From a virus: a stretch of 16,685 nucleotides of DNA. Positions 3,001-6,000 of the stretch are shown in pieces. Made by a program: the position numbers. Location of the stretch: UHGV virus genome UHGV-0176901; one strand, given 5' to 3'. Positions within the stretch are counted from its first letter, which is position 1. Each line of letters starts with the position of its first letter.

Positions 3001-6000
3001 GTAGCTTGTCGGAGCTGATCGCCTCCTGACTTTGCAGATTTGCACGACGAGCTCTACGGCGAGAAGCTGCGGTTCCTTTAAATTCTGTTTTTCTGGACAT
3101 AGATTCCTCCCGAATAAACTTTGGCGATGCAATCTCGAAGCCCCTCCTGAGACGGTTGCTTCGGCATTGCATCCCACAGCTTATGTGGTTGGGTGATCTG
3201 GCTTTTCAGCCACGTAGTCGAGTGTTCGACGTTGTTTAAAGAGCCTGCCAGTCTGTTCCGTTTGGCTTCCAGCTTCCTGCTGATGACTAAATAGTACGGG
3301 ACGTAGTTGATTAAGTCAACACAAACACTCTAAATGTGGTTAGTTTTTTTATAACTCTATGTATTTTATTGATTTATATTTTGGGAAAGAAAGTTGGCGC
3401 CAAGTTTTCACCAAAAGTGGTGAAATCCCTAAACCCTGTAGCCCGTCAAGAAGCTGGCCCGTGGTGCAGGAGATTCACTAGGGGTAGTGCAGGAGATTCA
3501 CTAGGGGTAGTGCAGGAGATTCACTAGGGGTAGTGCAGGAGATTCACCACCCTGGTGCAGGAGATTCACTAGGGGGTGGTGCAGGAGCTGCACCCAGAAC
3601 CAGTCACTCTTTTGAACCAGTCAATGAACCTAAAAACATTATGTTCGAACATGTCCGAACAGAGTGTGAAAAAACTCCTGACCGTCACGAAGAAACCGAC
3701 AAGGCATTCGAGGAAATATTCTGGTGTGCAGGCATGCGGAAAGCCGGTCTCGGCAACCATTAGTTACGTCAATGGCGTTTAAACGCCATAGGAAGCGCTG
3801 TAGAGAGATAAACAACTGTCAGACATTAAAATGTACGTGTGGGCGTAAATATTGCGTCAGAATGCGATTCAGGAGGTTTGGGGTTGGTTCACCAGGATTT
3901 GGAGTGTGGTATTTTTGCTTGCATTAAAAATGCACGAGATGTACTATAATAGCGTGGTTACCAATGTTGGGAAGGAAATATGAACAACCTTAAGAAATAT
4001 CGAAAGTCAGTGAGCATCAGTCAAACAATACTTGCTAAGGCAGTTGGATGCACACAGGGGGCTGTCGGTCATTGGGAAAGTGGTCGTCGCATGCCAGATC
4101 TTAAAACATGCCGTGCTCTCGTTGCTTACCTGAACAAGTTAGGCGCAAATGTAAGTCTTGATGACGTGTTCCCGCCGGAACACAAAGCCGCTTAATAAGC
4201 GGGACTGCTCTTTGTAACAACGGACATTCGTCCTACGTCGCTGAAAAGCGAGTTCCAAGATATCTGACCAACTAAGGCTATATGCGTTTCCACGCATACC
4301 TTTCAACTAACTATTCACTATTGGTGAATTAACAAATGACACAAGCAAGTTACAGCAAGCCAACACAGCGAGAAATTGATCGCGCAGAAACTGATTTACT
4401 CATCAACCTGTCAACGCTTACCCAGCGCGGTCTGGCAAAGATGATTGGCTGTCATGAATAGAAAGCACAAATTACAGGAGAAGACACAATGAGTATGATT
4501 CTGATTGAGAAAGCAATGAGAACTAAGGTTGGGAACCCGCGAAGAAAACTGATTCTGCTTAAACTTGCCGATAACGCCAATGACAATGGCGAATGCTGGT
4601 TTTCATATCAAGATCTCGCTTATCAGTGCGATATTAGCAGATCGACAGTAATTGGTCACATTTTAGCACTGGAAAAGACTGGGGTTTTGAATTTGGAGCC
4701 AGGAAGTAACCAGCCGAAGTTTGCTCGCCTGATGCTTAAATAAGCATTAACAAACACAACCAATTGGAGGTGAAAAAATGAGTATGATTCTGATGGTGAA
4801 GGCAATGGGAGCCAAAGTTGGAAACCCGCTCAGAAAACTGGTTCTGCTTAAACTTGCCGATAACGCCAATGACAATGGCGAATGCTGGCCTTCATATCAG
4901 CATATCGCTGACCAGTGCGAGATTAGCAAACGCTCCGTGATTAACCATATTGAGGCTCTTTGTGAGGCTGGCTTGCTAAAAAAAGTCACCCGAAAAGGTG
5001 AAAAAGGCAACTCAAGTAATATCTATATTCTTCGGCTTGGGGGTGCAGGAGATTCACTAGGGGTAGTGCAGGAGATTCACCACCCTGGTGCAGGAGATTC
5101 ACTAGGGGGTGGTGCAGGAGCTGCACCCAGAACCAGTCACTCTTTTGAACCAGTCAATGAACCTAAAAACATTATGTTCGAACATGTCCGAACAGAGTGT
5201 GAAAAAACTCCTGACCGTCACGAAGAAACCGACAAGGCATTCGAGGAAATATTCTGGTGTGCAGGCATGCGGAAAGCCGGGAAGAAAAACGCAGCTTCAG
5301 CATTCAGAACACAGTTCAGGGAATGGCGTAAAACTACAAGGGGTACGGCAAGCGAGTTTGCCACGATGCTGGCAGAAGACATCGCATGCAGGAGTGGTAA
5401 GCAGTTCGGATTCGACAGGTTGTTACCATCGAGCTACCTGAACGGTCAACGCTGGAACGACGAGAAGCCAGAAACTATTCAACCACAATCCAAACCATCA
5501 TCCGCAATCACCGTATCGAAAACTGGCTACGTGTTTTTCGACAGGTGAACCATGAAATCAAAAATCAAATCGCTACTGGTCGCTGGTTATAACCACGGCT
5601 GGTTAAGTATTTCGTTTGTCGATTTCTGGTTTAAAAATCTCAATCCGAGGGAATCATGAGGCCAAGTGAACTCAGCGACCTGCTTTGGGCGCAGGTTGAC
5701 AGGGTGGCTCCGCACCTGTTGCCAAACGGCAAGAAAGAGGGGCATGAGTGGGTTGCCGGTAACGTCAACGGTGACAAGGGAAACAGCCTTAAGGTCAACC
5801 TTAGCGGCAAGAAAAAATGGGCTGATTTCGCTGAGGGAGACGGCGGTGACATGCTTGATTTGTGGATGGCATGTCGTGGAATTAACCTGCATCAGGCTAT
5901 GCAGGAAGCGAAAGCATTTCTCGGAATCAAGGATGACGATCACCATTTCGATGCCAAACGTGAGAAGAAATTCTCCAGACCTGACCGCAAGAAAATCGCC

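What the first reader, a model, noticed from the sequence alone, without database searches (positions are those of the whole stretch)
4205..4251. nutL and nutR share an unusual boxA-spacer-boxB architecture with 4-nt GAAA loops
Both nut sites have a boxA of the GCTCTTT..AACAAC type, a 16-18 nt spacer that itself contains a short inverted repeat (GTCGA..TCGAC in nutL at 3213..3230; GGAC..GTCC in nutR), and a boxB with a 5-bp stem and a GAAA loop (TGGCTGAAAAGCCA at 3199..3212 and TCGCTGAAAAGCGA). Lambda boxB has a 5-nt loop and a shorter spacer. The paired N protein has a P22 gp24-like C-terminus, so this may represent a distinct N/boxB specificity class.
Basis: partly seen in the sequence, partly recalled or inferred. 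Interest (0 to 1): 0.45.

Follow-up and report, generated by a model that had tools for sequence, protein, structure and literature searches.

The report
Phage nut sites with tetraloop boxB
These are the two N-utilisation (nut) sites of a VT2-Sakai-type lambdoid phage, already annotated in close relatives; the one feature not yet studied is that their boxB hairpin has a true 4-base GNRA loop that always travels with one particular version of the N protein's RNA-binding motif.

Summary
nutR (4207-4251, +) and nutL (3244-3199, -) each have boxA, a spacer hairpin, a TACG linker and a boxB with a 5-bp stem and a GAAA loop.

The sites are not new. The adjacent N protein (90 aa) is 100% identical to N of VT2-Sakai and many other Stx phages. 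Both sites are 94-97% identical to features annotated there as "putative N-utilization leftward/rightward". The spacer hairpin is the one known from H-19B nut sites. The window's nutR spacer and boxB stem are identical to the experimentally footprinted H-19B nutR.

The only difference from H-19B, 933W and HK97 is the loop: GACAA there, GAAA here.

That difference looks meaningful. In about 250 related loci, N proteins with the motif RRR(A/E)(R/H/K)RAx(L/M)Q always have GNRA tetraloops (GAAA or GCAA) at both nut sites. N proteins with RRRERLK always have GACAA. There are no mixed loci, although the immunity cassette between the sites is very variable. One relative shows a natural motif-plus-loop swap. 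The two helices show compensatory changes at 6 of 9 pairs.

Verdict: an ordinary, already annotated N/nut system. It belongs to a tetraloop-boxB specificity subclass that is well supported by comparison but uncharacterised by experiment. Interest is modest.

The parts
4207..4221 (+). nutR boxA (GCTCTTTGTAACAAC; 8-nt core GCTCTTTG)
   Evidence: The core matches GCUCUUUA at 7 of 8 positions. It lies at the position homologous to the H-19B nutR boxA oligo RS662 and falls within the 'putative N-utilization rightward' feature of VT2-Sakai.
4222..4233 (+). nutR spacer hairpin (GGAC-ATTC-GTCC)
   Evidence: Predicted in every fold. Identical to the H-19B nutR spacer targeted by oligo RS663. The helix shows compensatory changes across relatives.
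4234..4237 (+). nutR linker TACG between the spacer hairpin and boxB
   Evidence: Conserved in 24 of 25 distinct sites; CACG in the other.
4238..4251 (+). nutR boxB: 5-bp stem TCGCT/AGCGA with GAAA tetraloop
   Evidence: Same stem as H-19B boxB (TCGCT-GACAA-AGCGA), without the C. Covariation.
3231..3244 (-). nutL boxA (GCTCTTTAAACAAC; core GCTCTTTA, 8 of 8)
   Evidence: About 97% identical to the 'putative N-utilization leftward' feature of VT2-Sakai.
3217..3230 (-). nutL spacer hairpin (GTCGA-ACAC-TCGAC)
   Evidence: In 80 loci with the same N the stem is constant while the loop varies: CTC, ACAC, ACTC, ATC, GCAC.
3213..3216 (-). nutL linker TACG
3199..3212 (-). nutL boxB: 5-bp stem TGGCT/AGCCA with GAAA tetraloop
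   Evidence: Relative to nutR, the second stem pair is swapped G-C to C-G. Covariation.
2828..3100 (-). N antiterminator gene (90 aa plus stop)
   Evidence: Pfam PF25694 N_peptide, E = 3e-32. 100% identical to N of VT2-Sakai, Stx2 II, YYZ-2008, 1717 and 2851. The start codon follows the VT2-Sakai annotation.
3032..3076 (-). Arginine-rich motif of N (residues 9-23, GTAASRRRARRANLQ)
   Evidence: Aligns with the motifs of P22, H-19B and lambda N. This motif type co-occurs only with GNRA tetraloop boxB.
3291..3319 (-). pL-like promoter (TTGACT, 17 nt, TACTAT) that would transcribe nutL and N
   Evidence: Consensus scan only; the position matches pL in VT2-Sakai.
3919..3947 (+). pR-like promoter (TTGCAT, 17 nt, TACTAT) upstream of cro
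   Evidence: Read by eye. It falls below the threshold of the scan, so it is putative.
3980..4195 (+). cro-like HTH gene (71 aa) directly upstream of nutR
   Evidence: Pfam HTH_3, E = 1.5e-11. Same position as cro in VT2-Sakai.
4281..4306 (+). tR1-like element downstream of nutR (hairpin TATGCGT-TTCC-ACGCATA)
   Evidence: By position it corresponds to the 'putative rho dependent terminator for pR transcript' of VT2-Sakai. This is an inference from homology and was not tested.

Best explanation
These are the leftward and rightward N-utilisation sites of a lambdoid phage that carries the VT2-Sakai-type N antiterminator.

Proposed mechanism: transcripts from pL and pR contain boxA, a small spacer hairpin, a TACG linker and boxB. 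The N-terminal arginine-rich motif of N (GTAASRRRARRANLQ) binds the boxB hairpin, whose GAAA loop is a true GNRA tetraloop closed by a U-A pair. boxA, which is near consensus here, recruits NusB/NusE, and NusA binds around the spacer. The RNA-tethered N then uses its conserved C-terminus (CLPNVALYAAGYRKSKQLTAR) to make RNA polymerase resistant to downstream terminators. This lets transcription reach the replication genes and Q on the right and the recombination genes on the left.

The spacer hairpin folds 12-14 nt out of the linear path. The effective distance from boxA to boxB then drops from 31/32 nt to 19/18 nt, the same as in P22 nutL (19 nt).

The tetraloop is the H-19B/P22 GACAA loop without the C that loops out in the P22 complex. 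The matching N motif has Ala, as lambda N does, where P22 has Arg11 and H-19B has Lys; Arg11 is one of the two P22 residues that contact that C. The N motif and the loop therefore form a co-adapted specificity pair, distinct from the GACAA class.

What is shown:
- The sequences and their position.
- Identity to annotated sites, and homology to the footprinted H-19B nutR.
- Covariation in the helices.
- Co-occurrence of N motif type and loop type.

What is inferred: binding, Nus-factor use, the effect of the hairpin on spacing, and orthogonality to the GACAA class.
For: - **Position and context.** nutL lies between a pL-like promoter and N. nutR lies immediately after cro and before a tR1-like element, a cII remnant, replication genes and Q.
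- **Identity.** N is 100% identical to VT2-Sakai N. nutL is 97% and nutR 94% identical to the features annotated as putative nut sites in AP000422.
- **Homology to an experimental system.** The H-19B nutR oligos in PMC3526286 define boxA, spacer (CACAATGGACATTCGTCCTACG) and boxB (TACGTCGCTGACAAAGCGAGTCCC). N plus NusA protect spacer and boxB there. The window has the same spacer hairpin and boxB stem.
- **Structure.** RNAalifold on 16 distinct tetraloop-class sites returns exactly the two hairpins. Six of nine pairs have compensatory double changes and none is broken. Covariation score is 0.676 against 0.143 in shuffles (0 of 500 as high) and at most 0.098 when partners are slid.
- **Specificity, N-centred.** 91 loci with the RRR[AE][RHK]RA.[LMV]Q motif have only GAAA or GCAA loops. 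85 loci with RRRERLK have only GACAA. No locus is mixed. The nutL-to-nutR distance takes 50 and 41 different values in the two classes, so the immunity cassettes in between differ widely.
- **Specificity, nutR-centred.** A scan anchored on the GAAA nutR found only tetraloop-class motifs wherever N could be read. The class includes N proteins only 39-71% identical to the window's, from Citrobacter, Cronobacter, Salmonella (g341c) and metagenomes.
- **Natural swap.** L096 has the same N body and the same nutL and nutR scaffolds as L094/L095. It carries an H-19B-type motif, and both its boxB sites read GACAA with a C-G closing pair.
- **Structural rationale.** In the P22 complex the C of GACAA is looped out and contacts His7 and Arg11 of the peptide (PMC12550061). 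Arg11 aligns with Ala in every tetraloop-class motif and in lambda N.
- **Spacing arithmetic.**
Against: - There are no binding or antitermination data for this N with these sites. The nut features in VT2-Sakai are themselves labelled 'putative'.
- Thermodynamic folding alone is ambiguous. For the 63-nt nutR and nutL segments and the 49-nt nutL, the minimum-energy structure pairs boxA with the 3' arm of boxB. The probability of the boxB helix ranges from 0.03 to 0.97 depending on context.
- The survey is highly redundant. Most loci are near-identical E. coli prophages, so there are only roughly 10 independent tetraloop lineages and 5 pentaloop lineages.
- The nut sites were collected with a pattern that required a paired 5-bp stem. 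The 100% paired figure is therefore partly by construction. One variant, L102 nutL (GCUC-CGUCAAC-GAGC), was missed by that pattern.
- Co-occurrence shows co-inheritance under selection, not orthogonal binding.
- From memory of the lambda literature, not verified here: lambda N peptide tolerates a GNRA tetraloop version of boxB. Specificity may therefore overlap with lambda's.
- The window's immunity region is abnormal (no cI, truncated cII), so this particular copy may sit in a rearranged or defective element.
Confidence: 0.8

Rival explanations
1. These are genuine nut sites, but the 4-nt loop is a neutral variant of GACAA. The Sakai-type and H-19B-type N motifs both recognise the common GNRA fold, so there is no separate specificity class. 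The co-occurrence simply reflects linkage of N, nutL and nutR.
For: - The two loop types differ by one nucleotide on identical stems and spacers.
- The C in P22 boxB is looped out of a GNRA-like fold, so the core fold is shared.
- From memory, not verified here: lambda N peptide binds tetraloop boxB variants, and the boxB requirements of P22 N overlap with lambda's (title of Cocozaki et al. 2008, seen in the reference list).
Against: - nutR is separated from N and nutL by a highly mosaic immunity cassette (50 and 41 different lengths). Even so, none of about 250 loci is mismatched.
- In L096, three separate elements changed together on an otherwise identical background: the N motif, nutL boxB and nutR boxB.
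- The motif position that aligns with P22 Arg11, which contacts the C, is Ala in all tetraloop-class proteins and Arg or Lys in GACAA-class proteins.
Confidence: 0.17
2. The functional RNA is not the local boxB hairpin but the alternative long-range pairing of boxA (GCUCUUU) with the loop and 3' arm of boxB (AAAAGC). This would act as a switch that hides boxA or boxB.
For: It is the minimum-energy structure for the 63-nt nutR and nutL segments and the 49-nt nutL. The first four bases of boxA often match the 5' arm of boxB: GGCU in nutL here, and CGCU at nutR in most relatives although the window's own nutR has UGCU.
Against: - The complementarity is not maintained in relatives. L089 nutL, L097 nutL, L098 nutL and nutR, and L100 nutL lack it.
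- In contrast, the boxB helix is kept by compensatory changes.
- In growing-transcript prefixes the boxB helix has probability 0.67-0.87 until 30 nt downstream have been made.
- Any boxA plus an A-rich boxB loop gives this complementarity by composition alone.
Confidence: 0.03
3. The inverted repeats are chance, or are DNA-level elements such as operators or intrinsic terminators, rather than RNA recognition sites.
For: The terminator scan flags the nutL spacer repeat on the + strand (3217-3230) as terminator-like.
Against: - The pattern occurs twice against 0.01 expected by chance.
- No U-tract follows either hairpin on the transcribed strand.
- The sites lie outside the promoter and operator regions.
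- Pairing is conserved while the sequence diverges.
- The sites are homologous to the footprinted H-19B nutR.
Confidence: 0.01

Closest known systems
nutL and nutR of Stx2 phage VT2-Sakai (AP000422), and the same sites in Stx2 II, Stx1-converting phage, YYZ-2008, 1717, 2851 and the PA series
   Same: - N protein 100% identical.
- nutL 97% and nutR 94% identical, with the same boxA, spacer hairpin, TACG linker and GAAA boxB.
- Annotated there as putative N-utilization sites.
   Different: - The nutL spacer-hairpin loop is ACAC here and CTC in Sakai.
- The base before the nutR boxA is T rather than C.
- The immunity region between the sites is completely different and lacks cI.
nut sites of H-19B, 933W, HK97 and HK106 (H-19B N system; Neely & Friedman 2000; Sen laboratory footprinting, PMC3526286)
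   Same: - Same layout: boxA region, spacer hairpin, TACG, 5-bp boxB.
- nutR spacer (GGACATTCGTCC) and boxB stem (TCGCT/AGCGA) identical.
- N proteins homologous, with an identical C-terminal 21 aa.
   Different: - boxB loop is GACAA there and GAAA here.
- N motif is RRRERLKAKA there and RRRARRANLQ here. N is 127 aa there and 90 aa here, about 40% identical.
- H-19B boxA is degenerate (CGCTATTT at nutR, none recognisable at nutL), whereas the window's boxA is near consensus.
- From memory of the Neely & Friedman abstract: H-19B N needs neither boxA nor NusB/S10. Whether that holds here is unknown.
P22 gp24 and P22 nutL (boxB GCGCU-GACAA-AGCGC; NMR structure 1A4T)
   Same: - Same Pfam family (N_peptide) and a homologous arginine-rich motif.
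- C-terminal 24 aa 79% identical.
- boxA GCTCTTTAAC.
- boxA-to-boxB distance of 19 nt equals the window's distance once the spacer hairpin is folded out.
   Different: - P22 has a pentaloop with a looped-out C that contacts His7 and Arg11, and no spacer hairpin.
- The window has a tetraloop, with Arg and Ala at those two motif positions.
Lambda N and lambda boxB (GCCCU-GAAAA/GAAGA-AGGGC)
   Same: - The closing sequence CU-G...A-AG is shared.
- The motif core RRRxRRA..Q is shared with lambda N (TRRRERRAEKQ).
- GAAA equals the lambda loop without its extruded fourth base (PMC12027372).
   Different: - Lambda has a 5-nt loop, a boxA-to-boxB distance of 15-16 nt and no spacer hairpin.
- Lambda N has Trp18 and an unrelated central and C-terminal part; the window's N has no aromatic residue at that position.
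Epsilon34 / g341c N and NutR (Salmonella P22-like phages)
   Same: - Both g341c nut sites have the spacer hairpin, TACG and a GAAA tetraloop.
- The N motif RRRERRAALQ belongs to the same class as the window's.
- The epsilon34 authors predicted a 'novel BoxB specificity' from the divergent N-terminal 27 aa (PMC2629481).
   Different: - N is only 39% identical overall and has an H-19B-like central region (120 aa).
- nutL has no recognisable boxA.

Membership tests
Lambdoid N-utilisation (nut) site | Lies in the early pL and pR transcripts: nutL between pL and N, nutR just downstream of cro | tested here: met
   A pL-like promoter at 3319-3291 (-), then nutL at 3244-3199, then N at 3100-2828. cro at 3980-4195, then nutR at 4207-4251.
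Lambdoid N-utilisation (nut) site | boxA element related to GCUCUUUA, 5' of boxB | tested here: met
   nutL has GCTCTTTA (8 of 8) and nutR has GCTCTTTG (7 of 8). Compare lambda CGCTCTTA and P22 CGCTCTTTAAC. The consensus itself comes from established knowledge; PMC3177189 gives the 8-nt boxA.
Lambdoid N-utilisation (nut) site | boxB: short hairpin with a G...A purine-rich loop, maintained as a structure | tested here: met
   A 5-bp stem with a GAAA loop at both sites. Three of the five stem pairs show compensatory changes, and the C-G and closing U-A pairs are invariant in the tetraloop class.
Lambdoid N-utilisation (nut) site | [quoted passage not shown] | tested here: met
   PF25694 N_peptide, E = 3e-32. 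The motif is GTAASRRRARRANLQ.
Lambdoid N-utilisation (nut) site | N binds boxB RNA and gives Nus-dependent antitermination | not testable with these tools
   There is only indirect support: homology to the H-19B nutR, where N plus NusA protect spacer and boxB (PMC3526286).
H-19B-type nut site (spacer hairpin, 'reducer') | Dyad symmetry forming a stem-loop in the spacer between boxA and boxB | tested here: met
   GGAC-ATTC-GTCC at nutR and GTCGA-ACAC-TCGAC at nutL. Eight different helices occupy the same position in relatives, all fully paired. PMC3526286 reports two hairpins in the H-19B nutR.
H-19B-type nut site (spacer hairpin, 'reducer') | boxB loop GACAA, paired with an N motif of the RRRERLK type | tested here: not met
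   The loop is GAAA at both sites and the motif is RRRARRANLQ.
H-19B-type nut site (spacer hairpin, 'reducer') | boxA dispensable; independent of NusB and S10 | not testable with these tools
   The sequence suggests otherwise: boxA is near consensus here but degenerate in H-19B. The H-19B property is recalled from the abstract of Neely & Friedman 2000. That paper is not held; only its title was confirmed.
Lambda-type boxB (GNRNA pentaloop, fourth base extruded) | Five-nucleotide loop GNRNA | tested here: not met
   The loop is four nucleotides. The lambda loops GAAAA and GAAGA were checked, and the definition is in PMC12027372.
P22-type boxB (GACAA pentaloop, third base extruded) | Five-nucleotide loop with a looped-out C | tested here: not met
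   There is no C in the loop. P22 nutL was checked, and the geometry is in PMC12550061.
GNRA tetraloop hairpin | Loop sequence G-N-R-A closed by a Watson-Crick pair | tested here: met
   GAAA closed by U-A. Relatives vary only at the N position (GCAA in L008 nutL and L093 nutR), as expected for GNRA.
GNRA tetraloop hairpin | Characteristic three-dimensional GNRA fold | not testable with these tools
   No RNA three-dimensional or RNA-peptide modelling tool was available. N has no sequence match in the PDB.

The most novel reading that the evidence does not exclude
The VT2-Sakai/epsilon34-type N proteins and their GNRA-tetraloop boxB sites would be a fourth natural mode of N-motif/boxB recognition, after lambda, P22/H-19B and phage 21. 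A lambda-like RRRxRRAxLQ motif without the tryptophan would read a true tetraloop with no extruded base. It would be functionally orthogonal to the GACAA class, even on otherwise identical nut scaffolds. If so, assembly of the N-NusA-RNA polymerase complex in this class needs no looped-out boxB nucleotide. Nature would also have provided a minimal one-nucleotide-plus-few-residue specificity switch.
Probability: 0.45. Interest if true: 0.5.

Novelty: new variant of a known kind. Interest (0 to 1): 0.35.

Why it matters
N/boxB is a textbook model for how arginine-rich peptides read RNA hairpins, and it is a widely used RNA-tethering tool. All structurally characterised classes use loops of five or six bases, and those that mimic a GNRA fold do so by extruding a base.

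A natural class that uses a plain GNRA tetraloop, separated from the GACAA class by one loop nucleotide and a few motif residues, would give three things:
- a clean system for studying how specificity evolves;
- a test of whether the extruded base is really needed for assembly of the Nus complex;
- possibly an extra orthogonal tethering pair.

The class is also the early-gene switch of VT2-Sakai-type Stx2 prophages of E. coli O157:H7, so it bears on how toxin-phage early transcription is controlled.

For this window as such, the finding is ordinary: it re-identifies annotated nut sites.

Tried and rejected
- **Genome scan for N relatives.** The one-genome-per-species collection gave only 4 loci. 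The first IMG/VR scan returned only near-identical N genes. I obtained diversity instead from a protein search followed by contig look-ups.
- **PDB and Rfam.** A sequence search of the PDB with N found nothing. Rfam has no nut or boxB family; the only hit was a chance Trp_leader match at E = 0.9.
- **Literature on tetraloop boxB.** Full-text searches for a described natural tetraloop boxB or for Sakai nut-site studies found none. One search was wasted on prefix matches to 'nutr...'.
- **Papers not held.** Neely & Friedman 2000, Cocozaki 2008 and Thapar 2014 are not in the library. What I say about them is from memory or from titles in reference lists.
- **MAFFT alignment of mixed loop classes.** The alignment of tetraloop and pentaloop sites (A2) put the loop indel in the wrong place. 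I did not use it for pair counts. I used a structure-anchored parse and a tetraloop-only alignment (A3) instead.
- **The boxA:boxB alternative pairing.** I considered it as a regulatory switch and rejected it, because it is not conserved in relatives.
- **Klebsiella phage phiKp_30.** I checked whether it shares the window's cI-less arrangement. It does not; the match is to its ordinary replication gene.
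Full report
**1. What is in the sequence**

On the + strand, directly after a 71-aa cro-like HTH gene (3980-4195; Pfam HTH_3), the window reads as follows:
- GCTCTTTGTAACAAC (4207-4221)
- GGACATTCGTCC (4222-4233)
- TACG (4234-4237)
- TCGCT GAAA AGCGA (4238-4251)

On the - strand, it reads GCTCTTTAAACAAC (3244-3231), GTCGAACACTCGAC (3230-3217), TACG (3216-3213), TGGCT GAAA AGCCA (3212-3199). This lies between a pL-like promoter (TTGACT, 17 nt, TACTAT; 3319-3291) and the N gene.

The shared 18-mer TACGTNGCTGAAAAGCNA occurs exactly twice in 16.7 kb, against 0.01 expected. 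The full nutR pattern has 0 expected.

**2. The N protein**

N is the 90-aa protein encoded at 2828-3100 (-): MSRKTEFKGTAASRRRARRANLQSQ...CLPNVALYAAGYRKSKQLTAR. The 114-aa maximal ORF is not the gene.
- It matches Pfam PF25694 'Transcriptional antitermination N peptide' (E = 3e-32).
- It is 100% identical to N of VT2-Sakai, Stx2 II, Stx1-converting phage, YYZ-2008, 1717, 2851 and the PA series. 47 phage records are at least 99% identical.
- Its last 24 residues are 79% identical to P22 gp24.
- That C-terminus is common to the whole family, whatever the arginine-rich motif. This includes proteins whose motifs resemble those of P22, H-19B, phage 21 and lambda. It therefore carries no information on boxB specificity.

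**3. These sites are already annotated, and the architecture is known**
- VT2-Sakai (AP000422) annotates 'putative N-utilization leftward' and 'rightward' at the homologous positions. They are 97% and 94% identical to the window's sites.
- 933W, HK106 and g341c also carry nut annotations at the homologous places.
- H-19B, 933W and HK106 have the same layout. Their nutR has the very same spacer hairpin (GGACATTCGTCC), linker and boxB stem (TCGCT/AGCGA) as the window, but the loop is GACAA. HK97 matched the nutR query at 88%, but its sequence was not read.
- The H-19B nutR has been studied experimentally. The supplement of PMC3526286 lists oligos antisense to boxA (sense CATAAGTAACACCGCTATTTTCAC), spacer (CACAATGGACATTCGTCCTACG) and boxB (TACGTCGCTGACAAAGCGAGTCCC). 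[quoted passage not shown]
- The spacer dyad symmetry was described for H-19B by Neely & Friedman (Mol Microbiol 2000, 38:1074). The paper is not held; its title is confirmed. From my memory of the abstract, the stem-loop was called a 'reducer' that brings the flanking elements together.

The 'unusual architecture' is therefore the standard one for this phage group.

**4. Are the hairpins real RNA structures?**

Thermodynamics alone is equivocal.
- The spacer hairpin is predicted in every context.
- The boxB helix competes with a pairing between boxA (GCUCUUU) and the loop and 3' arm of boxB (AAAAGC).
- The boxB helix probability is 0.83-0.97 in the minimal nutR, 0.03 in the minimal nutL, 0.4-0.6 and 0.7-0.9 in 111-nt contexts, and 0.67-0.87 in growing nutR transcripts until 30 nt downstream are added.

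Comparative data settle it.
- RNAalifold on 16 distinct tetraloop-class sites, from E. coli, Salmonella, Citrobacter, Cronobacter and metagenomes, returns exactly the spacer helix plus boxB. Six of nine pairs show compensatory double changes and none is broken.
- The covariation score is 0.676 against 0.143 for shuffles (0 of 500 as high) and at most 0.098 for slid partners.
- Eight different spacer helices (GTCGA, GGTGA, GGTG, GATTCA, GATTCG, GGAC, GGACG, GGCC) occupy the same position, four nucleotides (YACG) before boxB.
- In the tetraloop class the boxB consensus is NNNCU-GNAA-AGNNN.
- The alternative boxA:boxB pairing is not maintained in relatives.
- Caveat: the sites were collected with a pattern that demanded a paired stem, so '100% paired' is partly by construction. 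One Salmonella nutL variant (GCUC-CGUCAAC-GAGC) escaped the pattern.

**5. The one real difference: loop length co-varies with the N motif**

Results of the surveys:
- An N-centred survey covered 80 IMG/VR loci for each of the two N types, plus diverse loci obtained through a protein search. All 91 loci with the motif RRR[AE][RHK]RA.[LMV]Q have only GNRA tetraloops (GAAA, twice GCAA) at nutL and nutR.
- All 85 loci with RRRERLK have only GACAA. No locus is mixed.
- The DNA between nutL and nutR takes 50 and 41 different lengths in the two classes. Many different immunity cassettes have therefore been exchanged without ever producing a mismatch.
- A nutR-centred scan, anchored on the GAAA site, found only tetraloop-class motifs wherever N could be read.
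- The tetraloop class spans N proteins only 39-71% identical to the window's (L007, L089, L093-L095, L097, L098, L100).

The most telling case is L096.
- Its N has the same body as L094/L095 (HRPTPSRVVLQCKRKPCMKSEVVTITSMVSKYEGS) and its nutL and nutR scaffolds are identical to theirs.
- Its motif is H-19B-like (RRRERLKSAAISRG).
- Both its boxB sites read GACAA with a C-G closing pair instead of GAAA with U-A.

Redundancy is high, with roughly 10 against 5 independent lineages. Co-occurrence is not a binding assay, but the pattern is what co-adapted specificity predicts.

**6. A structural rationale (inference)**
- In the P22 N-peptide/boxB complex (1A4T), the GACAA loop adopts a GNRA-like fold with the C looped out. 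The C contacts His7 and Arg11 of the peptide (PMC12550061).
- Anchoring the motifs on (T/S/G/A)RR(R/H), P22 Arg11 aligns with Lys in H-19B-type motifs. It aligns with Ala in every tetraloop-class motif and in lambda N.
- The tetraloop-class core (S/G)RRR(A/E)RRAx(L/M)Q resembles lambda's TRRRERRAEKQ but lacks Trp18.
- GAAA equals lambda's GAAAA without the extruded fourth base (PMC12027372), and equals P22's GACAA without the extruded third base.
- So this class seems to read the bare GNRA fold. Whether it is orthogonal to lambda is unknown.
- For epsilon34, whose close relative g341c was surveyed here and falls in the tetraloop class, the authors had already predicted 'a novel BoxB specificity' from the divergent N-terminal 27 residues (PMC2629481). 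They did not link it to loop length.

**7. Spacing**

From the G of GCTCTT to the first boxB base:
- 31 nt in nutR and 32 nt in nutL;
- 16 and 15 nt in lambda;
- 19 nt in P22 nutL.

Folding out the 12- and 14-nt hairpins leaves 19 and 18 nt, the P22 value. This fits the 'reducer' idea.

Unlike H-19B, whose boxA is degenerate, the window's boxA is near consensus (8 of 8 and 7 of 8). Use of NusB/NusE is therefore plausible here but untested.

**8. Context and oddities**

The rest of the window is a lambdoid early-right operon:
- replication initiator;
- a 968-aa primase/helicase that contains an intein;
- NinB, RusA and Rha/Ant proteins;
- Q at 13255-13761;
- lysozyme.

The immunity region is abnormal.
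- There is no cI-sized ORF between pL and pR.
- In its place is a fragment of the replication gene with its iterons. Positions 3510-3747 are an exact copy of 5043-5280, and there are 5.4 iterons of 23 nt at 3464-3587.
- cII is cut to 41 aa.
- The nutL-to-nutR distance (1017 nt) is the shortest of 166 loci compared.
- No complete E. coli genome or phage record covers this junction.

This does not affect the identification of the nut sites. It does mean that this copy may sit in a rearranged, defective or mis-assembled element.

**9. Verdict**

The object itself is an already annotated N/nut system, and its spacer hairpin is a known feature. The part that appears uncharacterised is the GNRA-tetraloop boxB class with its matching N motif, for which the comparative evidence here is strong but indirect. 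I rate it a new variant of a known kind, of modest interest (0.35).

Noticed in passing
window 3250-3980: There is no cI-sized repressor ORF between the pL-like and pR-like promoters. The nutL-to-nutR distance (1017 nt) is the shortest of 166 related loci. No complete E. coli genome or phage record covers this stretch at 80% or more.
   Followed up: partly
window 3461-3747 and 5040-5280: Positions 3510-3747 are an exact 238-nt duplicate of 5043-5280, inside the replication-initiator gene. Together with extra copies, 5.4 tandem 23-nt iterons (GTGCAGGAGATTCACTAGGGGTA) lie at 3464-3587, in the place where cI should be. This is either a second origin-like iteron block or an assembly or recombination artefact at the repeats.
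   Followed up: partly
window 3749-3874: The sequence just after the duplicated block is 76% identical to the region downstream of the replication gene of Klebsiella phage phiKp_30. The inserted fragment therefore seems to continue as a different allele of the 3' part of the replication gene.
   Followed up: partly
window 3772-3789: A perfect 18-bp palindrome, ATGGCGTTTAAACGCCAT, contains a PmeI site (GTTTAAAC) and lies between the iteron fragment and pR. Its function is unknown; it could be a protein-binding site or a junction scar.
   Followed up: no
window 4336-4461: cII is truncated. The 41-aa ORF matches only positions 1-37 of the 91-position Phage_CII profile and then stops.
   Followed up: partly
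window 4489-4743 and 4778-5548: There are two tandem paralogous HTH_36 (replication-initiator N-terminal) ORFs, of 84 aa and 256 aa. Their 5' parts are 80% identical over 200 nt (4463-4662 against 4752-4951).
   Followed up: partly
window 5656-8562: The 968-aa Toprim/AAA_25 primase-helicase carries an intein (Hint and LAGLIDADG homing-endonuclease domains at about residues 379-631). A Toprim-domain protein at the corresponding position of an E. coli prophage (L104) has 626 aa. Klebsiella phage phiKp_30 has a 968-aa gene annotated as hypothetical.
   Followed up: partly
window 4206-4252 and 3198-3246 (-): boxA (GCUCUUU) is complementary to the loop and 3' arm of boxB (AAAAGC). In some contexts the minimum-energy fold pairs them instead of forming boxB. 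The pairing is not conserved in relatives.
   Followed up: yes
L102 4862-4903 (and L103): The nutL of a Salmonella prophage with an H-19B-type N motif reads GCUC-CGUCAAC-GAGC. That is a GUCAA loop with a C.C closing mismatch, while its nutR is UCGCU-GACAA-GGCGA with a U.G closing pair. These are variants of the pentaloop class.
   Followed up: partly
proteins P0058, P0068, P0069, P0079, P0060: The N family is mosaic. The same C-terminus (CLPNVALYAAGYRKSKQLTAR) is fused to several N-terminal motifs: GTAKSRYKARRAELIAE (phage-21-like, from memory), NRRRARRQAQREQ (lambda-like) and a P22/H-19B hybrid (P0060). Their boxB sites were not examined.
   Followed up: no
L090 (Xanthomonas pisi DSM 18956 contig, 394 nt): A 394-nt contig in a Xanthomonas assembly encodes an H-19B-type N. 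This is most likely enterobacterial or phage contamination of the assembly.
   Followed up: no
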